Origin: Eledone cirrhosa
Lineage: Eukaryota
DNA length: 64,000 nt
Assembly (NCBI GenBank): GCA_964016885.1
Contig: OZ024758.1
Location: 15,004,001-15,068,000 of the forward strand
Direction of reading: 5' to 3'
Shown here: positions 2,779-64,000 of the stretch, piece by piece
Position numbering within the stretch: the stretch's first letter is position 1
Layout of the letters: each line of letters starts with the position of its first letter
The notes under the pieces: model-generated
What the model saw: only the letters and a program-made list of their open reading frames with translations
Told to the model about the DNA's origin: nothing
Database searches by the model: none
Translations under genes and position numbers: made by a program

Positions 2779-4210
2779 CATATAGAGCATAATAATAGAC
2801 AAATGGGTTTATTTTAGTGAATCATCATCATCATCATCATCATTGTCATCATCATAATCTTCATTATCATCATCATTATCATCATCATCATCATTCACCA
2901 CCACCACCATTGTCACCATCATCACCATCATCATAACCACCACCACCATCACCACCATCATAACCACCACCACCACCACCATCATCATCACTATCATCAA
3001 TCAGCACCACCACCATCATCACCATCATCATAACCACCACCACCACCATCATCACCATCATCATAACCACCACCACCACCATCATCATCACCATCATCAT
3101 AACCACCACCACCATCATCATCATCATCACCATCATCATAACCACCACCACCACCATCATCATCACCATCATCATAACCACCACCACCACCATCCATCAT
3201 CATCACCATCATTCATAACCACCACCACCATCATCATCATCATCACCATCATCATAACCACCACCACCACCATCATCATCATCACCATCATCATAACCAC
3301 CACCACCACCATCATCATCATCACCATCATCATAACCACCACCACCACCATTATCATTACCATCATCATAACCACCACCACCACCATCATCATCATCACC
3401 ATCATCATAACCACCACCACCACCATCATCATCACCATCATCATTACCATCATCATAACCACCACCATCATCATAACCACCACCCACCACCATCATCATT
3501 ACCATCATCATAACCACCACCATCATCATAACCACCACCACCACCATCATCACCATCATCATAACCACCACCACCACCATCATCATTACCATCATCATAA
3601 CCACCACCATCATCACCATCATCATAACCATCATCATAACCACCACCACCATCATTATCATCATCACCATCATCATAACCACCACCACCATCATCACCAT
3701 CATCATAACCACCACCACCACCACCACCATCATCATTACCATCATCATAACCACCACCACCACCATCATCATCACCATCATCAATCAGCACCACCACCAT
3801 CATCACCATCATCATAACCACCACCACCACCATCATCACCATCATCATAACCACCACCACCATCATCATCATCGTCACCATCATCATAACCACCACCACC
3901 ACCACCATCATCATTACCATCATCATAACCACCACCACCACCACCATCATCATAACCACCACCACCATCATCATCATCATTACCATCATCATAAACCACC
4001 ACCACCACCATCATCATTACCATCATCACCACCACCACCACCACCACCACCATCATATATATATATATATATAAGCAGAAGAGATATTCAATTTGTTGGT
4101 AATTCAACAAATATAAATGTTTATAACTGATTCAGAGCACTCAACAAGTTTTTCTGGAGTATAATATACAATGATATTAAATAAATGGAAACTATATTTA
4201 TAAAACCATA

Positions 4211-4276
4211 TTTATTCTATTATATATATTTCAAGGGTACCAAAAACTTTGGTACGCTCTCATCAGATAAAATACA
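4211..4276 (-). ncRNA. Minimal type I hammerhead ribozyme (family H1)
   Basis: TATTTTAT-CTGATGA-stem II (GAGCGTACCA/TGGTACCCTT)-GAAA-TATATA-TA^-ATAGAATA. Confidence 0.8.
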
Positions 4277-4404
4277 AAGTGTGTTTTATAAATTTTCTAT
4301 TTATTTAATATCATTGAATATTATACTCCAGAAAAACCTGTTGAGTGCTCTGAATCAGTTATAAACATTTATATTTGTTGAATTACCAAGACATTCTAAC
4401 TACA

Positions 4405-4935: not shown

Positions 4936-5527
4936 GAAAAAAATCAAAAAAAACTATGTGAAGTGTTTATGAAAACATTAAACTAAATTAATAATAAAGG
5001 CAATATCTAATTTGATGAGATAAGATAGTTATTTCCACTTACTGTTTAATAATTTTTTTTTATCTTCCTTTAGGCTGTAATGATTAATTGAGATATTTTC
5101 TCAAGTTATATGATAAATGTTTTAAGTAGCACACATGAGATCCAACATTATTGGCATCAAATAGAATAAACTTTAAGTTTCTGGCTTTTATTCTGGAATA
5201 ATGAATGAAAAATTAGCTATAATAATTTTAGTTTTCATTTTTATTGTTTTTATTTATGATAGTTTCAATATATTGGGTCGTCAAGTATGAAATTTGTAGA
5301 AATTTGTTTGTTTTTTTTTCTACAAATTTGTACAAATTTCATACTTGATGAGATAATATATTCCCATTCTATAATTCCCAGGTATATAAACTATAAATTT
5401 CTCGGCTATCTTCTTAGTTTGTATCTCTTCTCATGTTCATCTCATATTAACAATAAGCTGTTATTGTAATCTCTGTGAAACACTCACTCCTTGCAACAGT
5501 GAAAAGATGGAAGCTTGCTTCGTATAA

Positions 5528-6104: not shown

Positions 6105-6530
6105 AGGAGGTGAGCTTTATTGTAGCACAATAAAGCAACCATTTTTTTCAGTTATTTCTCTGTGGAGACAGCGTTTCTCAGTTTAAATGTTTATCTCTCT
6201 CTCTTTCTGTCTTCTCTCTTTCTCTCTCCTTCCTCCTTCTTATATTCTTCCTTCGTTATCCTTTCCTTCTTTTTTCTTTTTCCTTTCTTCCTCTTCCTTA
6301 CTTTTCTCCCCTTCCTTTCCTTTTTTCCAATCTCCTATATCCTTTTAAATTTATTCATCATATGTTTATTAGACACTACCTTGCTCACAAGTGTTTTTTT
6401 TAAGCTTCATATCATGTCTCCCTGTTTTATCTGATGAGAACGCAAATATCGTCCCAGGATGATATTTGTTTTTGAAATGCGCATAATAAAATACATAGAA
6501 CATTTTTAACTATCTTTTAATTTCTTCTTA
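6105..6530 (+). mobile_element. Short non-coding hammerhead-bearing element (H2 family; other copies 63177-63682 and partial 39720-39870)
   Basis: Copies align from GAGGTGAG(C/T)TTTAT through a pyrimidine tract and the ribozyme to TCTTTTAATTTC; all abut (TA)n. Confidence 0.8.
6423..6493 (+). ncRNA. Minimal type I hammerhead ribozyme (family H2)
   Basis: TGTTTTAT-CTGATGA-GAACGCAAATATC/GATATTTGTTTTT-GAAA-TGCGCA-TA^-ATAAAATA. Confidence 0.88.
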
Positions 6531-17480: not shown

Positions 17481-20400
17481 GATAGCAACTAACAGTGCTG
17501 CGATCGAATGTGGCTTTTTAGCCCAGCCAATGATCCAAAATGTCTTGCACAGAGTCGGCAACCAAAACATTTACTGGGAATAGTCGGCTGTGGTTGGAGT
17601 TCGTGTACTTTTGCATGTCGCTTGAGTCCTCCTGCTGATTTACATTCTCTACCACATGTTTGGCAAGCATGATGAGTAGCATCTCCAACAGCAGCCTGGT
17701 AGTCAACCACTGGTCTTACTTTATGACTGCGAAGATGACTTTCGAGTCCAGCTTTGCTTAGGCAGAGTCTCGCACAGACGCTGCATGTCAGAAACATAGG
17801 AGGACCCTCGCCGTCTGGAAGTGCAACAGCAATACCCTTCCTCACGTCCCGCTTTACTTTCTCGTGTGCGATTCGAGATGCCTCAAAGGCAACTTTTCCC
17901 TCATATACAGTCTTTCTCCATTTATTACGATCAGCAGCAACATTTTCCCATGTATCAGCAGAGATGTTAGCGTCTCTCAGAGAGGCCTTCAAGGAATCCT
18001 TATACCTCTTTTTTGGTTTATGTGGCGGTCGTTTTCCTTTAACCAACTCTCCATAGAAGAGTTGTTTTGGTATTCTAGAATCCTTCATCCTGGCAAGGTG
18101 ACCACTCCAACGGAGTCGCTGCTTAAGCACAAGAGCTTCTATACTGTCACACATAGAGCTTTCCAAAATTTCGACATCACTGATGTGGTCCCTCCAGTGA
18201 ACGCCATGTATCCGTCTGAGACACATCTGATGGAAACGCTCCAATTGCTTAAGGTGGCGTCGATATGTGACCCAGGTCTCGCAGGCATAAAGAAGACAAG
18301 AGAGTACACATGCCCTGTACACCTTTACCTTTGTCCTCCTGCATATGTCTCGCCGACCCCAGAGTCGCCTTTCTAGCTTTCCGAAAGCATCACTTGCTTT
18401 CCTAATCCTAAGTGAGATTTCACTGTCAAGGTTGCCGTATCGATTGACAGTGCTTCCCAGGTAGACAAACTGATCAACCACTCCAAGTCGTTTGCCATAC
18501 ACATAGATGTTTGGTTCAGTGTACTGCCTACCAGGTGCAGGTTGGTACATGACGACGGTTTTCTTGAGACTGACAGTCAAACCCAGGGCAGTGCAAGCGT
18601 CAGAAAATACATTCAAAATGTGCTGCATATCACTCTCTGTGTGCGCTACAAGATCGCAATCATCTGCATACAAGAGGTCTCTTATGACTGATGTAAATAC
18701 TTTTGTCTTCGCAGCAAAGCGCCTGATGTTAAATATGCTGCCTGAGGTTCGATATCGGATGTAAACACCATGCTCGCAATTCCTGAATGCAATACAGAAA
18801 ACCATTGCAAAGTATATGGCAAACAGGGTCGGTGCTGGAATATCCCCCTGTTTCACTCCATTTTTTACTGAGATAGGCTCCGACATGTTACCTCCGACAT
18901 TAACCCAAGCCTTCATGTCGTCATGGAAAGACCTAACTAAAGCAAGGAACTTATCAGGGCAACCAAGTTTCTGGAGAACCTTCCATAATGCATCTCTGTT
19001 GACAGTATCGAAAGCCTTTGTCAGATCGACAAAAACCTGATACAGATCCAAGCCCTGTTCAATGCACCTCTCCTGGAGCTGTCTAGCTGAGAAGATCATA
19101 TCAGTAGTGCCGCGTCCAACACGAAAACCAGATTGACTTTCAGGAAGGACACAATCTGCAATGTGTGTCAGCAGACGGTCCAGAAGCACCCTACATAAAA
19201 CTTTCCCCACGACAGAAAGCAATGATATACCTCTGTAGTTCCCACAATCATTCCTGTTACCCTTTCCCTTGTACAAGACCACCATTACTGCATCTCTCCA
19301 GTCCTCAGGCACGGATTCATTAGCCCATATCCTTCCAAACAGAGAGTGAAGATGTTGCAGGAGTCTCTCACCACCATATTGTAGGAGCTCAGCATGTATG
19401 CCATCCATACCTGGAGATCTTCCACTGTTCAGCTTCGAAATAGCCACTGCAACCTCCACAAGTGTCGGAGGCTCTGCGAGAGCTACTTTCACAGGACTTT
19501 CTGGAATGAGATTGAGGAAATCTTCACTGACGACAGACGGCTGATTCAAAAGATCATCAAAGTGCTCTCGCCACCTTCGTAGAATTCCCTGTGAGTCACG
19601 AAGAAGTTCTTTGCCATCCCTGCTGCGAATCGGTGTCACCAGAGAAGAAGACGGTCCATAAACCTCACGCAAGAGACTGTACAACAGCTTTGTGTTATTG
19701 CAATCAGACGCAGTTTGTATCTCACCAGCCTTCTCACTCCACCACTGATCCTTCATCTGAGAAAGACTCCGCCTAACACGTGATTTTACATCCCTGAGCT
19801 CCTCATGCAACGTATTCCTCTCCTGTGGTCTTGCCGTCAAGTAGCGTGACAGAGCGCGCCTCTTATCAGCCAACAAGTCATCTATATGCACATCTTTCTC
19901 ATTAAACCAGTCCTGATGTTTTCTCTGCACCAATCCCAGAACACGTCTGCCTACATCATAAACCGACTTTTTAAGGGTCGGCCAATCCTCACCAAGATCT
20001 GCAGCCTGCATCTCTTCTTCCAATGTCCTCTTCACATTTTTATCCTTAAGACGAGCAGCATTCAATCTTTTGGGCAGGGTAACACCAGGAGCCCGGATTT
20101 TACGTTTGGTGATTAGATTCACTTTTGCGCGTACCAGGCGGTGGTCCGTCCAGCACTCAGCTCCACGAAGAACACGAACACACCGCACATCCTGTCTGTC
20201 ACGCATCCTGACTAGGACGTAGTCCAAAAGATGCCATTCCTTAGATGCAGGATGCATCCATGTGGTCTTGAATTTGTTCTTTTGTTGGAACATGGTGTTG
20301 GTAACACACAGATCCAGCTCCTCACACATCTGCAGCAAGAGCATACCATTGCTGTTACACTTTCCCACCCCATGCCTTCCGATTACATTCCATGTGTTAA

Positions 20401-21043
20401 AATCCCTACCCACTCTAGCATTAAAGTCACCAAGCACGATGACTTTGTCTGCCTGAGGGATATTTCTTAAAACACCTTTCAAGGCATGGTAAAAGGACAG
20501 TTTTTCTTCATCGACAGAATTCATAGTTGGAGCATACACACTCACCAGGGTAGCATATCTTCCCTTGTCCAGCGGAACTCTCATGGACATAAGACGCTCA
20601 CTAATCCCCACTGGGAATTCTTCTAATTTATTCACCAGTACAGTCTTAACAGCAAATCCTACCCCAGCCTCTCTTCTGGTTCCTTCATCTCTTCCTTTCC
20701 AGAAGAATGTATATTCTCCACAAAATTCCGTAAGATGACCATCTCCAGCTAACCTCGTCTCAGACAAAGCCACGATGTCAAGATCGTAACGTCGAAGCTC
20801 CTTCGCAACAAGAGCGGTCCTTCGTTCAGGACGCTCCAAAGAATCCCTGTCAAGCAGCGTCCGTACGTTCCAGCAGCCAAGACTAAATGCCCTGTTTGGC
20901 TCTATTACAATGGCACGATGACGGGCGGGCCCAGGTTGTGATAACTTGGGGCCCCTGCCCTTATTGCCAATGATCTCTTTTGTTCCAGAACCCAAATTGG
21001 CAATTATCTCGTTTACATTGTTCTGGAACATCATTGAATTGGG

Positions 21044-21076
<33 letters not shown>

Positions 21077-21410
21077 TAATAATAGTAATAATAATAATAA
21101 TAATAATACACTATTAATAATTATTAATGCACTCGTGCAATGCCTGTGCGTGACGAATATTTTTAAAGTGAGGAAAGACTGTGCACTGAACCAATCCCAC
21201 TCTCTGAGCGACAGTAGCTATAACCCGAAAAGAAGAAAAGATCAACATCATCGGTAACTACTGAGCCGCAGGTTTTATATCGGAGTTAACCCAGTTTCCT
21301 GAGATGCCTTCTCCTAGAAGAATACCCTGACATGGGCTAGGGGTTCTTCACTCCCAGTGGTTTAACTGCGCGATCGGGCATCCAGCCCGATTATTTCTAT
21401 GTCCCCGCGC
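16989..21410 (-). mobile_element. Near full-length RTE LINE (element RTE-1) including UTRs
   Basis: ORF above. 5' UTR about 21130-21410. 3' tail GGCCATACTCGATAACGAGGGGGCAGCCATC (CTCG/CGAG stem-loop) near 16989-17020. Both UTRs are split by microsatellites. No TSD resolvable in the (TA)n flanks. Confidence 0.85.
17489..21034 (-). CDS. RTE-clade LINE polyprotein: APE endonuclease + reverse transcriptase + three C-terminal C2H2 zinc fingers (1181 aa, uninterrupted)
   Basis: APE motifs WNVRTL, ALSETR, VYAPT, LGDFNA, LDYVL, TDH. RT motifs NYRGISLL, QSGFR, FVDLTKAFD, GVKQG, LLYADD, YLGS. C-terminal fingers CSVC..HLRSH, CQTC..HAKVH, CRLC..HIRSQH. Confidence 0.97.
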   Translation of the reverse strand: MMFQNNVNEIIANLGSGTKEIIGNKGRGPKLSQPGPARHRAIVIEPNRAFSLGCWNVRTLLDRDSLERPERRTALVAKELRRYDLDIVALSETRLAGDGHLTEFCGEYTFFWKGRDEGTRREAGVGFAVKTVLVNKLEEFPVGISERLMSMRVPLDKGRYATLVSVYAPTMNSVDEEKLSFYHALKGVLRNIPQADKVIVLGDFNARVGRDFNTWNVIGRHGVGKCNSNGMLLLQMCEELDLCVTNTMFQQKNKFKTTWMHPASKEWHLLDYVLVRMRDRQDVRCVRVLRGAECWTDHRLVRAKVNLITKRKIRAPGVTLPKRLNAARLKDKNVKRTLEEEMQAADLGEDWPTLKKSVYDVGRRVLGLVQRKHQDWFNEKDVHIDDLLADKRRALSRYLTARPQERNTLHEELRDVKSRVRRSLSQMKDQWWSEKAGEIQTASDCNNTKLLYSLLREVYGPSSSLVTPIRSRDGKELLRDSQGILRRWREHFDDLLNQPSVVSEDFLNLIPESPVKVALAEPPTLVEVAVAISKLNSGRSPGMDGIHAELLQYGGERLLQHLHSLFGRIWANESVPEDWRDAVMVVLYKGKGNRNDCGNYRGISLLSVVGKVLCRVLLDRLLTHIADCVLPESQSGFRVGRGTTDMIFSARQLQERCIEQGLDLYQVFVDLTKAFDTVNRDALWKVLQKLGCPDKFLALVRSFHDDMKAWVNVGGNMSEPISVKNGVKQGDIPAPTLFAIYFAMVFCIAFRNCEHGVYIRYRTSGSIFNIRRFAAKTKVFTSVIRDLLYADDCDLVAHTESDMQHILNVFSDACTALGLTVSLKKTVVMYQPAPGRQYTEPNIYVYGKRLGVVDQFVYLGSTVNRYGNLDSEISLRIRKASDAFGKLERRLWGRRDICRRTKVKVYRACVLSCLLYACETWVTYRRHLKQLERFHQMCLRRIHGVHWRDHISDVEILESSMCDSIEALVLKQRLRWSGHLARMKDSRIPKQLFYGELVKGKRPPHKPKKRYKDSLKASLRDANISADTWENVAADRNKWRKTVYEGKVAFEASRIAHEKVKRDVRKGIAVALPDGEGPPMFLTCSVCARLCLSKAGLESHLRSHKVRPVVDYQAAVGDATHHACQTCGRECKSAGGLKRHAKVHELQPQPTIPSKCFGCRLCARHFGSLAGLKSHIRSQHC

Positions 21411-23095: not shown

Positions 23096-23425
23096 TTTTT
23101 TTTCATGACGTTATTATTGTTAATTTTACTGATGTAGTATTAACTTGGATATTTACCATGCGACCCTCAGTTCCTACCTCACAATTTCCCTCCCCCCCCA
23201 CCCCCACACACCACCATAGTCTATTCGACCAATCAAACCTAGCATGCCATTTCCACTGCTGCTGCTGCTGCTACTACCTGCCTAACTAACTCTCTCCTCC
23301 TCTGGCGCATCCCAACACACCCTGCCATTACCCCACCACCACTGTCCTTCTAGCCCTCAATTTTCCCACCGTTATGGATGGATGAGCTGGGAATACACGA
23401 GCAACTCTGAATCAATAGATGAAAT

Positions 23426-26400
23426 ATGAATCTGCGAGCTACCAAGCACCCACGTGAAGCGCCAACCCAGAGACCCTCCCCTACGAGTGTCGACAAATGC
23501 CCAAAACTCCGAGTTGGTACCATCAATGTAGGCTCAATGAAAGGAAGAGCAGGAGAAATCGTAGAAATGCTAGAGCGAAAGGAAGTTGATGTATGCTGTG
23601 TGCAAGAGACTAGATGGAGAGGAGGGTCTGCTAGAGTCCTTGTAGGAAAAAGCCAGTGCTACAAATTTTTCTGGGTGGGAAATGACGATGGGATGGGTGG
23701 TGTAGGTATACTATTAGCTGACAAGTGGGTAGATAAAGTAATCTCAGTGTACAGGGTAAATGCAAGAATCATTAAACTCAGACTAGTCCTGAATAAGACA
23801 ATTACCACAATAATATCAGCTTACGCACCCCAATCGGGGCTGCCAGACGAACTTAAGGATAGGTTTTACGAGTCCCTAATACACACTACTGCTCTAACAG
23901 ACGACAAGGACTTCCTAATCATTGCAGGAGATTTTAACGGACACGTAGGTAAACACTGCGACGGCTTCAATAGAGTACATGGAGGCCATGGAGTTGGCAC
24001 AAGGAATGAGGAAGGATTCAGACTTCTAGAATTCTGCGACGCCAATGACATGTCGATATGTAACACAAACTTTAAAAAACCCGACAACCACCTGATCACC
24101 TATAGATCAGGGGAGCACTCTAGTCAGTTAGATTTTATCCTCATCAGAGGACGTGACAGATGGACGGTCGTAAACACAAAAGCCTTCCCTAGTGAGGAAT
24201 GTACATCCCAACATAGCTTAGTTGTCAGCGACCTCACGGTCAGAACTAGACGAGCCCTGAAACAGAGGCCAACCTGGAGAAGAAAGATCTGGAAGCTGAA
24301 AGTCCCCTCAACCAGTAACAGATTTAAAGATATTTTACTCAACGCCTACGACAGTAAAGAAGAACAGATAGAGACATTTAACGTAGAAGAGAACTGGGAG
24401 TTCCTAAAAAATAACTTACTAGAGGCGACGGATGAGGTTTGTGGCTGGAGTAAGACCTCAAGCAGGAGGAGAGTGACTTGGTGGTGGAACAATAAGGTAG
24501 ATGAAGCAGTCAAGGCCAAGAGACAGGCATGGAAAGAATGGAAGAACGGGGGGAGCAGGGTACATTACATAGAGACCAAGAGGGAAGCTAGGCGACAAGT
24601 ATACTTAGCTAGGAGGGAAGCAGAGGATAGAAAATTCAAGCATGTTTTACAACGTGAGGACCAGAAACAGGAGGTATTCAAGATTGCGAGGCAGTGTGTC
24701 AGAGATAGTTGTGATGTCATTGGAGAGAAGTGTATCCGGAATGATAAAGGTGAGCTTGCCCTCACAAGTGCTGAGAAGAAAGATGCATGGAAGAGTCATT
24801 ATGATAGATTACTAAATGAGGAGAATGCATGGGAAGAAGAGACCCTACCCCACGTAGACCCTATAGAGGGACCAGCAGTACAAGTCAGCGGCAGCGTAGT
24901 AAGTAAGGCAATCAGAGATATGAAGATAGGGAAGGCAACCGGTCCATCGGGTATAGCTGCCGAGATGCTGAAGGCATCTGGGTCTGTAGGTCACACTATA
25001 ACCACACGTATCGTTAACCAGGTAATACTAGAGGGGGCCATACCAAAAGATTGGTGCAGTAGCATCATTGTCAACTGCTACAAAGGTAAAGGCGATGCAC
25101 TAGATAGAGGAAACTATAGAGGTATAAAGTTGATGGACCAGGTCATGAAAGTAACAGAAAGAGTTATAGCACAGCTGATTAGGGACCGGGTGAATATAGA
25201 CGAGATGCAATTTGGGTTTGTTCCAGGGAAAGGCACCACTGATGCGCTCTTCCTTGTGAGGCAATTACAGGAAAAGTACCTAGCTAAAAGTAAGCCACTC
25301 TACTTGGCATTTGTCGACCTTGAGAAAGCCTTTGACAGAGTTCCACGTGCAGTAATCTGGTGGGCTCTTAGAAAACTAGGAGTAGATGAATGGCTTGTGA
25401 AAGCGGTACAAGCCATGTATAGGGGAGCAGTCAGCAAAGTTAGGATTGGCAATGAGTATAGCGAGGAATTTAGCGTACAGGTTGGGGTCCACCAAGGCTC
25501 TGTTCTTAGCCCTCTCCTGTTCATCATAGTCCTGCAGGCAATAACGGAGGAGTTTAAGACCGGATGCCCATGGGAACTCCTGTATGCTGATGACCTCGCA
25601 CTCATAGCTGAATCTATGGTAGAACTAGAGAATAAATTCCAAACCTGGAAGCAGGGACTAGAGAGAAAGGGCCTCAAAGTCAACATGACAAAGACTAAGG
25701 TCCTTATAAGTAGACGAGAAAACAGAACCCAGATCCCCTCAGGGAAATGGCCTTGCTCAGTATGTAGGAAAGGTGTAGGTAGGAACTCCATTCTTTGCCC
25801 CAAATGCAAACAATGGGTACACAAGAGATGTAGCGGGATCTCAGGAAGCTTAATTAAGAATGTAGGATTCACATGCAGCAGCTGTGCTGAAACAGCAAGC
25901 AAACAGCCACAGGAAACAAGTACCACCAATCTCTGGGAGGGCCCTGTAGAAACAGTAGACAGCTTCTGCTACCTAGGTGACCGAATTAGCAACGGAGGTG
26001 GGTGCTCAGAAAGTACAATAACTAGGGTAAGAACGGGATGGAAGAAGTTTAGGGAACTACTACCACTGCTAGCTGCAAAAGGCTTCTCCCTCAGAATGAA
26101 AGGCAGACTGTATGATGCGTGTATCCGAACAGCGATGTTGCATGGTAGTGAGACCTGGGCGCTGAAGGTGGAAGACTTACGTAGATTAGAGAGAAACGAA
26201 GCCTGCATGCTCCGATGGATGTGTAACAGTAATATACGTGAACGACAAAGCATAAATGAATTGAGAGAGAGACTGAGCATAAGAGGAATCAAATGCTGCG
26301 TGCAGGAGAGGCGGTTACGCTGGTATGGACATGTGATGCGTATGAAGGATGACAGCTGCATAAAAAGGTGCAGAGCACTAGAAGTTGATGGAAACCGCGG

Positions 26401-26545
26401 AGTGGGGAGACCCAAGATGACTTGGGATGAGGTGATAAAAGCCGACCTTACCCAACTACACCTCTCAAAGTCAATGACACACGACCGTGACTTCTGGCGT
26501 CACGCAGTAATACAGGGTACCCGACCTCCCATGGGTACATGCTGA
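23426..26545 (+). CDS. RTE-clade LINE polyprotein: APE endonuclease + RT with an internal Cys/His-rich (PHD-like) insert (1039 aa, uninterrupted)
   Basis: INVGSM, CVQETR, AYAPQ, AGDFNG, LDFIL; YRGIKL, QFGF, FVDLEKAFD, GVHQGSVLSP, LLYADD; insert CSVC..CPKC..HKRC..CSSC; C-terminal RLRWYGHV..GRPK typical of RTE. Confidence 0.97.
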   Translation: MNLRATKHPREAPTQRPSPTSVDKCPKLRVGTINVGSMKGRAGEIVEMLERKEVDVCCVQETRWRGGSARVLVGKSQCYKFFWVGNDDGMGGVGILLADKWVDKVISVYRVNARIIKLRLVLNKTITTIISAYAPQSGLPDELKDRFYESLIHTTALTDDKDFLIIAGDFNGHVGKHCDGFNRVHGGHGVGTRNEEGFRLLEFCDANDMSICNTNFKKPDNHLITYRSGEHSSQLDFILIRGRDRWTVVNTKAFPSEECTSQHSLVVSDLTVRTRRALKQRPTWRRKIWKLKVPSTSNRFKDILLNAYDSKEEQIETFNVEENWEFLKNNLLEATDEVCGWSKTSSRRRVTWWWNNKVDEAVKAKRQAWKEWKNGGSRVHYIETKREARRQVYLARREAEDRKFKHVLQREDQKQEVFKIARQCVRDSCDVIGEKCIRNDKGELALTSAEKKDAWKSHYDRLLNEENAWEEETLPHVDPIEGPAVQVSGSVVSKAIRDMKIGKATGPSGIAAEMLKASGSVGHTITTRIVNQVILEGAIPKDWCSSIIVNCYKGKGDALDRGNYRGIKLMDQVMKVTERVIAQLIRDRVNIDEMQFGFVPGKGTTDALFLVRQLQEKYLAKSKPLYLAFVDLEKAFDRVPRAVIWWALRKLGVDEWLVKAVQAMYRGAVSKVRIGNEYSEEFSVQVGVHQGSVLSPLLFIIVLQAITEEFKTGCPWELLYADDLALIAESMVELENKFQTWKQGLERKGLKVNMTKTKVLISRRENRTQIPSGKWPCSVCRKGVGRNSILCPKCKQWVHKRCSGISGSLIKNVGFTCSSCAETASKQPQETSTTNLWEGPVETVDSFCYLGDRISNGGGCSESTITRVRTGWKKFRELLPLLAAKGFSLRMKGRLYDACIRTAMLHGSETWALKVEDLRRLERNEACMLRWMCNSNIRERQSINELRERLSIRGIKCCVQERRLRWYGHVMRMKDDSCIKRCRALEVDGNRGVGRPKMTWDEVIKADLTQLHLSKSMTHDRDFWRHAVIQGTRPPMGTC

Positions 26546-26857: not shown

Positions 26858-26896
26858 AATATTAATAAATGGAAACTATATTTATAAAACCATATT

Positions 26897-26961
26897 TATT
26901 TCATTATATATATTTCAAGGATACCAAGTTACATTATGGTATGCCTTCATCAGACAAAATA
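26897..26961 (-). ncRNA. Minimal type I hammerhead ribozyme (family H1)
   Basis: TATTTTGT-CTGATGA-AGGCATACCA/TGGTATCCTT-GAAA-TATATA-TA^-ATGAAATA; stem II differs from the 4211 copy but still pairs. Confidence 0.8.
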
Positions 26962-27158
26962 CAATATATAACCGTTTTATAAATAGACATTGACGTACCC
27001 CTTTAAAAATTGACCGTTGCTTTTGGAGGCTATCAGGCCATCGAGTGCTTTATATCAGTTATAAAAATATTTGCTTGTTGTATCCCAACAATTTAAATAA
27101 AACTTTTGCATATATATATATATACACACACACACATATATATATACATACGCACACG

Positions 27159-38977: not shown

Positions 38978-39665
38978 TATTCTATGTACTAAGGGTGGTC
39001 GATTCATTTTCCTGACATTTGTACATTATTCTATGTACTATACATGCACCTTTGATGAGTTGTAGTGCACCTGAGCACTTTTCCCTTGCAAGCAGGGAAA
39101 AGTGGACGTAAAATGATGATGATGATGATGATGATTCTAAAATTGGAACAATACAGAGAAGATTACCATGGCTCCTGCGCAAAAATGACACGCAAATTCG
39201 TGAAGCGTTCCATATTTTTCCAACGGTGGTGCCCCAGCATGGCCTCAGCCAGATGGCTGGAACAGGTAAAAGAGTAAAAGAGTATTTGCAGCCTATTGGA
39301 CGCTCCTTCGCATAAGACGCTCTCTCTCTCTCGTTTTTTTTACTATATTTTACATTATATTTTGACATTTATAGGCATTTTTATGGACCACGTCCAATAT
39401 TTGGGGTTTTTTTACCCTTCACGGGAGTTCTAGGAATGTAACCCCTATGGATATTGGGGGACAACGGTACCAGCATTCTCCATTATAATCTACAATTAAT
39501 GATATGTTACATGTCTTTGGTTTTTCATTGCCATTGTCTAATTTTGTTTTATTATCTGCTGCTTTTATATATATATATAATTATTTACATATATATATAT
39601 ATATACATACACACATATATATATACACACACATACATATATATATATACATACACACACACACC

Positions 39666-39768: not shown

Positions 39769-39839
39769 TATTTTATCTGATGAAAACACAAATGTTATTG
39801 CATGATGATATTTGTTTTTGAAATGCGCATAATAAAATA
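39769..39839 (+). ncRNA. Minimal type I hammerhead ribozyme (family H2)
   Basis: Same layout as the 6423 copy: CTGATGA at 39777, GAAA-TGCGCA-TA at 39820-39831. Confidence 0.85.
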
Positions 39840-42144: not shown

Positions 42145-42193
<49 letters not shown>

Positions 42194-42303
42194 TATATAT
42201 ATAAAATAATGAAGTGATTCCGTCGGAAAAGTCCAGGAAAAAAGAGTGCTCTATGTCGGTAACAGAGCTTAATAGTTATGTAATAAACAACATAAGGCAA
42301 TTA

Positions 42304-42363
42304 TTCCATTTACCAGTGGTTTCTTAAAAGCAAAAAATGTTGCTTTCAATCATCAGAATGAAA
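42304..42363 (-). ncRNA. Type I hammerhead ribozyme (family H3), left arm of palindrome
   Basis: Mirror copy of 42440-42499. Confidence 0.88.
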
Positions 42364-42439
42364 AAATCCTGGTCTATTTATTGATATTGGATTCTAAAAA
42401 GGTTTTTAGAATCCAATATCAATAAATAGACCAGGATTG

Positions 42440-42499
42440 TTTCATTCTGATGATTGAAAGCAACATTTTTTGCTTTTAAGAAACCACTGGTAAATGGAA
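42440..42499 (+). ncRNA. Type I hammerhead ribozyme (family H3), right arm of palindrome
   Basis: TTTCATT-CTGATGA-TTGAAAGCAA/TTGCTTTTAA-GAAA-CC ACT GG-TA^-AATGGAA. Confidence 0.88.
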
Positions 42500-42938
42500 T
42501 AATTGCCTTATGTTGTTTATTACATAACTATATATATATATATATGTATGTATGCATGCATGTGTGTGTGTGTGTGTACACTTTATTTATGTGTATACAT
42601 TATATATATATATATATAACCCTTGCTAGCGTGGAAGATGGACGTTAAACGGTGATGATGATTTATATATATATACACACCCTTTATCTATCATCATCAT
42701 CATCATCTTACGACTGATTTTTATATATATATATACTTTATTTATGTATATATATATTTATATTTATATACACTTTATTTATTTATATATATATATATAT
42801 ATACTTTATTTATGTATATATATATTTATATATATATATACACTTTATATACATCATCATCATCATCATCATCATTTTACGTCCGCTTTTCCCTTTATTT
42901 ATGTATGTATTATACACTTTATACACTTTATTTATGTG

Positions 42939-47476: not shown

Positions 47477-48830
47477 AAGGCCAGTGCTTTTTCCAGCTTC
47501 TGTGGCGTGAAACGACTGAGAGTACAAGACTCCCGCCCCCAGACAGGACGCCAGTCTATCACAGGGTTAAATCCCCAGATATTGCTGGTACTCATTTTAG
47601 AATGGTCTCAGGTGGGTTAATTTTAGAAGGATCTCAGGTAGATTAATTTTAGCTTGATCTAAGGTGGATTGATTTTAGTAGGGTCTCAGGTGGATTAATT
47701 TTAGTTTTGTCTTAGGTGGGTTGATTTTAGCTAGGTCTCAGGTGGGTTAATTTTAGTTTGGTCTCAGGTGGGTTAATTTTAGTTTGGTCTCAGGTGGGTA
47801 AATTTTAGTTAAGTCTGAGGTGGGTTAATTTTAGCTAGGTCTCAGGTGGATTAATTTTAGTTAAGTCTCAGGTGGGTTAATTTTAGCTAGGTCTCAGGTG
47901 GGTTAATTTTAGTTTGGTCTCAGGTGGGTAAATTTTAGTTAAGTCTGAGGTGGGTTAATTTTAGCTTGGTCTGAGGTGGATTAATTTTAGCTTGGTCTCA
48001 TGTGGGTTAATTTTAGCTAGGTCTCAGGTGGGTTAATTTTAGCTAGGTCTCAGGTGGATTAACTTCAGAAAGATCTCAGGTGGGTTGATTTTAGAAGAGT
48101 CAAACAGTAAAATTGGAAAATTTATTGTAAAAGTATTGACAGATAGGAAAATTTATTTTAAAATAAATATTTTGTATTTCAATAAATTTTCCAATTTTAC
48201 TGTTTGACTCTTCTAAAATCAACCCACCTGAGATCTTTCTGAAGTTAATCCACCTGAGACCTAGCTAAAATTAACCCACCTGAGACCTAGCTAAAATTAA
48301 CCCACATGAGACCAAGCTAAAATTAATCCACCTCAGACCAAGCTAAAATTAACCCACCTCAGACTTAACTAAAATTTACCCACCTGAGACCAAACTAAAA
48401 TTAACCCACCTGAGACCTAGCTAAAATTAACCCACCTGAGACTTAACTAAAATTAATCCACCTGAGACCTAGCTAAAATTAACCCACCTCAGACTTAACT
48501 AAAATTTACCCACCTGAGACCAAACTAAAATTAACCCACCTGAGACCAAACTAAAATTAACCCACCTGAGACCTAGCTAAAATCAACCCACCTAAGACAA
48601 AACTAAAATTAATCCACCTGAGACCCTACTAAAATCAATCCACCTTAGATCAAGCTAAAATTAATCTACCTGAGATCCTTCTAAAATTAACCCACCTGAG
48701 ACCATTCTAAAATGAGTACCAGCAATATCTGGGGATTTAACCCTGTGATAGACTGGCGTCCTGTCTGGGGGCGGGAGTCTTGTACTCTCAGTCGTTTCAC
48801 GCCACAGAAGCTGGAAAAAGCACTGGCCTT
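47477..48830. repeat. Giant palindrome: 651-bp arms, 52-bp spacer; each arm holds a SINE piece and a 26-bp minisatellite
   Basis: 47477-48127 is the reverse complement of 48180-48830; no mismatch seen by eye. Confidence 0.95.
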
Positions 48831-63176: not shown

Positions 63177-63680
63177 GAGGTGAGTTTTATAGTAGAACAA
63201 TAAATAATTAGTATACTTAATTTCTATATATGTAATCATAAACATCGTTACTCATAAACCTCATCAATTTTTGATTTTTGATTTTTTAATTTTATTTATA
63301 AATCTACAACCGTTTTTTTTCAGTTATTGTTCAGTGGAGACAGCGTTTCTAAGTTTAAAGGTTTATATCTCTCTCTCTCCTCTCTCTTTCTCTCTCCTCC
63401 CATCCTTCTTATACTCTTCCTCCGTTATCCCTCCCTTTTTTTCTCCTTTCTTCCTCTTCCTTCCTTTTTTCCTTTTTTTTCCAATCTTTTATATCCATTT
63501 AAATTTATTTATCATATGTTTATTAGACACTGCCTTGTTAACAAGCATTTTCTAAGCATCATATCATGCCTCCCTATTTTATCTGATGAGAACGCAAATA
63601 TCAACCCAGGATGATATTTGTTTTTGAAATGCGCATAATAAAATACATGGAACTTTTTTAACCATCTTTTAATTTCATCT

Positions 63681-63718: not shown

Positions 63719-63830
63719 TTATATATATATATAATCTAACCCATGCTAGCATGGAAGAACGGACGTAAAACGGTGATGATGATTATATATATATATATAT
63801 ATAATTTCAAATATTTCACTATGTTTTAAA

Positions 63831-63904
63831 TTGCCTTGTCTGATGAACAAATGCGGACATTTCTTGTATCCGTCATATTCGGGAAACCTCTGGTAATGAG
63901 GTAA
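63831..63904 (+). ncRNA. Type I hammerhead ribozyme (H3-related)
   Basis: TTGCCTTGT-CTGATGA-imperfect stem II (GCGGA/TCCGT)-GAAA-CC TCT GG-TA^-ATGAGGTAA; downstream 63919-63963 is homologous to 42211-42256 (minus). Confidence 0.75.
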
Positions 63905-64000
63905 TTATATTGTAACTTACATAGAGCACTTTTCATTCCTCTGACTTTTTCAACGGAAACTTCAACACACACATATATTTATATATATATATATATATAT

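What the first reader, a model, noticed from the sequence alone, without database searches (positions are those of the whole stretch)
42272..42531. 129-bp-arm palindrome placing two divergent hammerheads back to back
Seen: near-perfect hairpin (one mismatch, GG centre at 42401-42402). Each arm holds a complete hammerhead reading outward, so a transcript from either strand carries one ribozyme and its antisense. The left arm continues into element sequence shared with 63919-63963, while the right arm stops in (TA)n. Known: Penelope insertions often carry an inverted partial pLTR. Inference: a snapshot of fold-back/self-primed reverse transcription; if transcribed, the RNA could partition between self-cleavage and a long dsRNA hairpin.
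Basis: partly seen in the sequence, partly recalled or inferred. Interest (0 to 1): 0.75.

Follow-up and report, generated by a model that had tools for sequence, protein, structure and literature searches.

The report
Twin-primed Penelope retroelement start-site palindrome
The hairpin is two head-to-head copies of the hammerhead-bearing front end of a common Penelope-like jumping gene (at least 938 end copies in this genome), likely made when two reverse transcriptions started from opposite sides of one DNA cut and both ran to the start of the element's RNA, which would explain how this class builds its mirror-image ends.

Summary
The 129-bp-arm palindrome and both outward-reading hammerheads are real, but this is not a one-off. 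It is a 324-bp insertion of a Hydra-clade Penelope-like retroelement family whose coding parent (about 3.8-kb unit, RT plus GIY-YIG endonuclease) is in the same genome. The family has at least 938 tail-bearing and 1,569 tail-less ends in (TA)n. An inverted 5'-truncated copy with a one-sided tail is the published Penelope pattern. Sister copies argue against fold-back. The outer ends are fixed at element positions 129 and 193, while the inner ends vary independently. The inverted arm is sometimes kilobases longer than the direct one. Either arm can carry a non-genomic G at the likely RNA start; here the GG centre belongs to the tail-less arm. Best model (0.72): two target-primed cDNAs from one source, joined at their ends. 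In read-through RNA the hairpin beats the ribozyme fold by about 84 kcal/mol (computed), so no partition is expected. The scan reached the same reading earlier on other DNA of this genome. Known structure, new family member, with a testable mechanism.

The parts
42208..42531 (.). Whole two-armed insertion (324 bp) of a Hydra-clade Penelope-like element, in (TA)n
42208..42271 (-). 64-nt one-sided tail (element positions 130-193), between the two fixed ends; in coding copies it continues into the 5' UTR and ORF
42272..42400 (-). Direct, tail-bearing arm (element positions 1-129); likely the cDNA primed at position 193
   Evidence: priming site inferred
42304..42363 (-). Type I hammerhead with palindromic helix III; predicted cut after 42311
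42401..42402 (+). GG centre: genomic G0 (42402) plus one non-genomic G (42401), read as the 5' end of the right arm; likely cap-templated or run-off addition
   Evidence: T at this place in 38 of 38 read-through arms; G in 25 of 31 arms that stop here
42403..42531 (+). Inverted, tail-less arm (element positions 1-129); likely the cDNA primed at position 129
   Evidence: priming site inferred
42440..42499 (+). Type I hammerhead, identical to the other one; predicted cut after 42492
42153..42207 (.). Left (TA)n target flank; no target-site duplication can be read
42532..42546 (.). Right (TA)n target flank

Best explanation
The palindrome is a short two-armed insertion of a Hydra-clade Penelope-like retroelement in (TA)n, likely written in one event by two target-primed reverse transcriptions, one from each side of the cut. 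Shown: both arms are the element's pLTR front end; the outer ends are fixed at positions 129 and 193; the inner ends vary independently; both arms come from the same subfamily; a coding parent exists. Inferred: the element's RT/GIY-YIG protein cuts both strands of (TA)n and starts one cDNA at 193 (with tail) and one at 129 (without) on RNA from one source locus. When it uses the start sites in the 5' pLTR, both cDNAs soon run off the RNA's 5' end at G0, often adding a C, and host end-joining links the two cDNA ends head to head. The product lacks the ORF and the sequence downstream of 193, so it is likely dead on arrival. Its hammerheads are passengers, predicted to be locked in the long hairpin in any read-through RNA.
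For: Fixed ends: inverted arm ends at 129 +/-1 in 44 of 46 copies, direct arm at 191-193 in 89 of 90 loci; 1,569 exact (TA)n-joined tail-less ends and 938 exact arm/tail junctions, controls 0. Pairing: for 59 tail-bearing sites and 100 tail-less sites on contig C1, all 27 of 27 pairs within 10 kb are upstream and inverted, with 0.11 expected per class by chance. Independent truncation: inverted arm more than 10 nt longer in 7 of 46, direct arm longer in 7 of 46; L158 has a 97-nt direct arm and an inverted arm reaching into the ORF, L152 and L154 are similar, L156 is the reverse. 5'-end mark: the base before G0 is G in 25 of 31 arms that stop there (11 of 13 in the unbiased set, 4 of them ambiguous with microhomology) and T in 38 of 38 read-through arms; both arms carry it in 5 copies. 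One source: 15 discordances in 485 arm-to-arm comparisons at 8 subfamily sites against about 190 expected. In vitro, a Poseidon PLE cuts and extends both strands, starts at two internal sites that bracket the tail, and is predicted to be a dimer (PMC11167929, parts 1-2 of 4). Hammerhead core decays like flank (18 of 1702 versus 50 of 4198 positions).
Against: Same-source arms are equally expected from fold-back. About 8 of 46 junctions are nearly or fully symmetric at short self-complementary sites such as TTTTAAAA, which fold-back could make. Later deletion of a palindrome centre could mimic some arm asymmetry. The RNA start at G0 and the cap origin of the extra G are inferred from DNA only, and cap copying by RTs is recalled knowledge. 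The in vitro work is on another clade and does not show inverted products. Loop II sites differ between arms far more often than other sites (23 of 67 at position 62), which I cannot explain. The 30 best hits are biased towards this copy, and the unbiased set is from one contig and needs an exact 50-mer.
Confidence: 0.72

Rival explanations
1. Fold-back or self-priming: one cDNA (or an antisense RNA, as proposed in PMC3846280) snaps back at its end and copies itself up to position 129, then joins (TA)n.
For: Arms share subfamily variants and 15 rare variants are mirrored. Zero-spacer junctions occur at self-complementary TTTTAAAA (L033, L043, L077, L119). It is the published hypothesis.
Against: The inverted arm holds sequence absent from the direct arm in 7 of 46 short copies and by kilobases in L158, L152 and L154. 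The extra G sits on the tail-less arm in this copy and on both arms in 5 copies. A fold-back has no evident reason to stop at exactly 129 in 44 of 46 copies, past many other TA sites.
Confidence: 0.13
2. A palindromic master element (a MITE-like or retrozyme-like unit) is copied whole; the variable centre comes from later cruciform instability and gene conversion.
For: All 40 of 40 best hits share the overall layout at 92-100% identity. Inner ends pile up near one position.
Against: Junctions differ from copy to copy and arm pairs span from about 50 bp to 8 kb. Several subfamily haplotypes each form palindromes, and some also occur in coding copies. 159 rare variants are on one arm only against 15 mirrored, so conversion is not keeping the arms alike.
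Confidence: 0.1
3. Assembly or library chimera.
For: No read spanning this locus could be examined. The window holds another, 654-bp perfect inverted repeat.
Against: One arm mismatch; arms differ by 3.1% on average across 75 copies; fixed biological ends; raw reads from another study show the tail-less end at (TA)n and strand-changing joints.
Confidence: 0.02
4. A host-selected RNA switch that partitions between self-cleavage and long double-stranded RNA.
For: Both cores are intact here and in 53 of 66 copies with both ribozymes scored.
Against: The core decays at the same rate as the flank. The hairpin is favoured by about 84 kcal/mol and the antisense arm comes first on either strand. There are hundreds of equivalent copies.
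Confidence: 0.03

Closest known systems
Hydra clade of Penelope-like elements, e.g. Hydra-1_Obim (Craig et al. 2021, PMC8557442)
   Same: RWK, DKT, CxCX5C linker, no CCHH, CxxC and CxH round E and N, (TA)n target, hammerhead; Hydra-1_Obim has a like palindromic helix III (acca-a-tggt) and a similar N-terminus by eye.
   Different: A distinct family: different hammerhead stems, a tandem unit of about 3.8 kb with a long low-complexity 3' region and a second degenerate hammerhead. Identity to Hydra-1_Obim was not computed.
EN+ Penelope insertions with an inverted 5'-truncated pLTR and one-sided tail (PMC3846280; PMC8557442 Fig. 2 legend)
   Same: Head-to-head inverted copy at the 5' end, tail on one side only, palindromic junction.
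   Different: Here both copies are cut down to the pLTR alone, the tail is 64 nt and not 30-40, and the copy statistics favour two primers over the self-priming that PMC3846280 proposes.
Poseidon PAc of Anolis in vitro (PMC11167929)
   Same: Two RT start sites bracket the tail; both target strands are cut and extended; AT-rich targets; hammerhead cleavage is not needed.
   Different: Another clade; in the parts I read (1-2 of 4) the paper does not link this to inverted arms or to run-off at the RNA 5' end.
Non-LTR retrozymes (bioRxiv 10.64898/2026.07.22.740005, part 1 of 5 read)
   Same: Short non-coding PLE-derived units with type I hammerheads.
   Different: Retrozymes are defined as head-to-tail tandem units; this is a head-to-head pair made from a coding parent.
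L1 twin priming (recalled, no call)
   Same: Two primers from one target site give an inversion.
   Different: In L1 the two cDNAs cover different parts of the RNA; here they cover the same part, from two fixed start sites.

Membership tests
Penelope-like element, EN+ | Single ORF with RT and C-terminal GIY-YIG endonuclease in the parent | tested here: met
   The tail continues into an ORF with YRDDG and a C-terminal VVYEA...RYVG region with R, H, E, N. All copies read were interrupted. Pfam found no domain above cut-off; assignment rests on motifs and on the alignment in PMC8557442 supplements.
Penelope-like element, EN+ | pLTR in tandem or inverted copies, with optional one-sided tail | tested here: met
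   Tandem units in L141, L143, L147; inverted arms and 64-nt tail.
Penelope-like element, EN+ | Hammerhead motif within the pLTR | tested here: met
Penelope-like element, EN+ | Target-site duplication | tested here: inconclusive
   Both flanks are (TA)n; PMC8557442 notes the same limit.
Hydra clade | RWK motif and DKG changed to DKT | tested here: met
   RMRWKA and SDKTKN in P0002 against the definition.
Hydra clade | CxCX5C linker; CCHH absent; CxxC and CxH around E and N | tested here: met
   CSCRKPDEC, no cysteines between the two GIY-YIG halves, CSLC..EK, NSK..CPH in P0001 and P0003.
Hydra clade | Insertion into (TA)n | tested here: met
Hydra clade | Placement in an RT tree with reference Hydra proteins | not tested
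   Reference proteins were seen only as supplement text; no tree was built.
Neptune clade | CX2-5CxxC linker and CCHH zinc finger in the endonuclease | tested here: not met
   my first guess, dropped.
Non-LTR retrozyme | Head-to-tail tandem units each with a hammerhead | tested here: not met
   Head-to-head pair; definition.
Type I hammerhead ribozyme | Conserved core, stems I-III, UH site | tested here: met
   in the isolated 60-mer the hammerhead fold (-10.1) is level with the minimum-energy fold (-10.2); subfamily variants fall on the free N7 position and turn a stem I U-G into U-A.
Type I hammerhead ribozyme | Self-cleavage | not testable with these tools
   PMC4209133 (passages) reports low, dimer-dependent activity for metazoan PLE hammerheads.

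The most novel reading that the evidence does not exclude
Hydra-clade Penelope elements insert by symmetric twin target-primed reverse transcription: both ends of one cut in (TA)n are extended on RNA from one source, from two fixed start sites 64 nt apart, and the cDNA ends are then joined. The mini-palindromes are double run-off products that record the capped transcription start in the genome. This would explain the inverted pLTR and the one-sided tail together and replace the published self-priming idea.
Probability: 0.65. Interest if true: 0.62.

Novelty: new member of a known kind. Interest (0 to 1): 0.45.

Why it matters
The structure itself is the published Penelope pattern. How such inverted copies form is named as open in PMC8557442, and the one proposal I found is self-priming (PMC3846280). 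This family gives hundreds of natural products with fixed outer ends, independent inner ends and a 5'-end mark on both arms. That yields exact predictions (start sites 129 and 193, RNA start at G0) for an existing type of in vitro assay. Hundreds of near-perfect 130-bp hairpins could also be a source of double-stranded RNA if they are transcribed; that is untested.

Tried and rejected
Rfam at gathering score: no hammerhead hit, only U6 and a tRNA-like hit. Pfam on four ORF pieces: nothing above cut-off. Neptune assignment: rejected on motifs. Sequencing runs: no RNA holder listed, so expression, RNA start, editing and small RNAs are untested. Laying contigs and short reads did not span this locus; no listed piece bridges the centre. 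Hammerhead cut as the template's 5' end: only L071 and L108 have a direct arm compatible with a start at the predicted cut, both ambiguous through microhomology; no support found. Search of earlier findings by sequence gave one unrelated hit, and 'near' gave none. Literature searches for a twin-primer model of Penelope inverted ends found none in the held library; most subscription journals are not in it. Rows dropped: L034 (same flanks as L033); L066, L078, L091, L093 (the nearby 'arm' is the degenerate internal copy; L066 and L078 have true partners farther out); L052 (lost to that filter through a point change, only); L060 (overlap artefact in the 'inverted longer' list).

Full report
OBSERVATION. 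The palindrome is as described: arms 42272-42400 and 42403-42531, one mismatch (42364 A / 42439 G), GG centre. Each arm holds the same type I hammerhead reading outward: 7-bp stem I, CUGAUGA, 10-bp stem II, GAAA, a short palindromic helix III and a UA site, with predicted cuts after 42311 (-) and 42492 (+). A palindromic helix III is the dimer-type form described for metazoan Penelope hammerheads (PMC4209133, passages). The left arm runs on for 64 nt to 42208; both ends meet (TA)n. The similarity to 63911-63964 is 44 of 56 columns in the tail only, so that is a related family. Below, element position 1 is 42400 on the minus strand and 42403 on the plus strand; one search used a frame 2 lower (127 = 129, 191 = 193).

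IT IS A FAMILY. A search of the own genome (G000, 3.0 Gb) with 42190-42540 gave 2,088 candidates; all 40 of 40 scored, including this one, are near full-length two-armed copies at 92-100%. An exact 50-mer across the arm/tail border occurs 938 times and an exact (TA)n-joined tail-less end 1,569 times; reversed controls gave 0. For a sample not selected for palindromes I took the first 90 of the 100 listed 50-mer sites, all on contig C1. An inverted arm lay within 1.4-1.9 kb upstream in 51 of 90; after removing one duplicate and four hits to an internal degenerate copy, 46 of 89. Many others have the partner farther out: for 59 tail-bearing and 100 tail-less sites on C1, all 27 pairs within 10 kb were upstream and inverted, against 0.11 expected per class; at 10-30 kb the five pairs were mixed.

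THE PARENT. In some copies the tail continues into a 5' UTR and an ORF. Tandem units of about 3.8 kb read pLTR with hammerhead, tail, 5' UTR, ORF, then a long low-complexity 3' region with a degenerate second hammerhead. All ten long loci examined had interrupted ORFs. The protein has RWK, DKT, YRDDG, a CxCX5C linker, no CCHH, and CxxC and CxH motifs round E and N. These are the features that define the Hydra clade (PMC8557442 section 11), which inserts in (TA)n and includes Hydra-1_Obim (supplement hits). I first guessed Neptune; earlier scan notes pointed to Hydra and the motifs bore that out. Pfam did not recognise the pieces, and no tree was built.

HOW THE PALINDROME WAS MADE. (a) Outer ends are fixed: 129 +/-1 in 44 of 46 inverted arms, 191-193 in 89 of 90 direct arms. 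In vitro, a Poseidon element starts reverse transcription at two internal sites that bracket the tail, cuts and extends both target strands, and is predicted to be a dimer (PMC11167929, parts 1-2 of 4). (b) Inner ends are independent: the inverted arm is more than 10 nt longer in 7 of 46, the direct arm in 7 of 46. Among 11 long pairs, L158 has a 97-nt direct arm and an inverted arm that reaches about 2.7 kb back into the ORF; L152 and L154 lean the same way and L156 the other way. A fold-back copy cannot hold sequence that its template strand lacks. (c) Inner ends pile up near position 0: 25 of 46 inverted and 29 of 89 direct arms end between -20 and +8. The genomic base before G0 is T in 38 of 38 read-through arms, but G in 25 of 31 arms that stop at G0. 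In the unbiased set it is 11 of 13, of which 4 could also be microhomology. Five copies carry it on both arms. I read this as RT running off a capped 5' end and adding C; that RTs do so is recalled, and no RNA data test it. In this copy the GG continues the tail-less arm, so that arm itself reached the RNA end, and a tail-less cDNA cannot supply the tail by copying itself. (d) Both arms come from one source: 15 discordances in 485 comparisons at 8 subfamily sites against about 190 expected, also in widely spaced pairs; arms differ by 3.1% within and 6.0% between copies (75 copies). One mismatch in 129 is within the range of that rate (P = 0.09). Together these favour two first-strand cDNAs primed from the two sides of one cut and joined at their 3' ends. 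One RNA molecule or two from the same locus cannot be told apart.

AGAINST. Point (d) also fits fold-back, the published proposal (PMC3846280, passages). About 8 of 46 junctions are nearly or fully symmetric at short self-complementary sites. Later deletions at palindrome centres could create some asymmetry. Loop II differs between arms in 23 of 67 copies at position 62, unexplained. Several junctions show a recurring CTAG between the two extra bases (L005, L023, L058), also unexplained. No read spanning this locus was available; family-level raw reads from another study show the tail-less end at (TA)n (235 and 226 reads) and a few strand-changing joints.

WHAT THE RIBOZYMES DO HERE. Because the hammerheads read outward, the antisense arm is transcribed first on either strand. 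The full RNA folds at -210 to -213 kcal/mol; forcing the hammerhead costs 83.5-84.3 kcal/mol, against 2.8 in the 193-nt monomer. So read-through RNA is predicted to be hairpin only. Core positions differ from the majority at 18 of 1702 places and the 3' flank at 50 of 4198: no sign of selection after insertion. Subfamily variants respect the fold (N7; U-G to U-A in stem I), which points to selection in the source elements. The insertion ends at 193; the Poseidon protein needs RNA beyond its start sites, so by analogy this copy is likely not a template. Only a transcript starting at the centre would free a ribozyme; untested.

COMPARISON AND NOVELTY. Inverted 5'-truncated copies with a one-sided tail are the published Penelope layout (PMC8557442; PMC3846280). 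The element is a new family of the Hydra clade and not a retrozyme tandem (bioRxiv 10.64898/2026.07.22.740005, part 1 of 5). Eight searches of the held library found no twin-primer account of Penelope inverted ends; subscription journals are mostly absent, and I read only the supplements of PMC8557442, by search, so others may bear on this. I noted the two-cDNA reading before opening the scan's earlier notes; several of those notes reach the same reading on other DNA of this genome. They are unreviewed and not independent support.

VERDICT. Real, common, known in kind. Interest 0.45, carried by the testable insertion mechanism.

Noticed in passing
window 47477-48830: 654-bp inverted repeat, 99.8-100% complementary, 46-nt spacer, built from a 26-bp tandem repeat and a piece of another repeat; no hammerhead found. 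Very recent event or assembly chimera.
   Followed up: no
window 4085-4395: Another hammerhead family (motif at 4266-4221, minus strand) as an asymmetric two-armed insertion: about 117-bp inverted arms with the ribozyme on one side only; relative at 26859-27110. Symmetric palindromes of this family lie in L045 and L141.
   Followed up: partly
window 6431-6485, 39777-39831, 63583-63637: Three copies of a further type I hammerhead family with palindromic helix III (AUGCGCAU), on the + strand, no inverted arm seen.
   Followed up: no
window 63800-63967: One-armed distant relative with its own hammerhead (CUGAUGA at about 63841), sharing only the tail with the focal element.
   Followed up: partly
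window 17489-21217 (-) and 23423-26545 (+): Two long open frames (1242 and 1040 aa) that look like endonuclease plus reverse transcriptase of non-LTR retrotransposons, by eye.
   Followed up: no
window 39116-39219: U6 snRNA copy lacking its 5' stem, joined to an (ATG)n repeat; likely a retrocopy.
   Followed up: no
L141:1728-1790 and other long copies: A pyrimidine tract ending in CAG about 30 nt upstream of G0 looks like a 3' splice site; both arms of L120 end at it.
   Followed up: no
L141:4719-4820: The parent's 3' region holds a second, degenerate hammerhead copy with UG at the cleavage site, predicted inactive.
   Followed up: partly
L146:5110-7083: A second Hydra-like ORF, 35% identical to the parent over 422 columns, lies just downstream; several PLE families nest in each other's (TA)n.
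   Followed up: partly
element positions 62-67 (window 42334-42339, 42464-42469): Hammerhead loop II varies about ten times more than the rest (115 of 845 positions) and often differs between the two arms of one copy.
   Followed up: partly
window 5267-5362: Short, decayed palindrome (75% over 96 columns).
   Followed up: no
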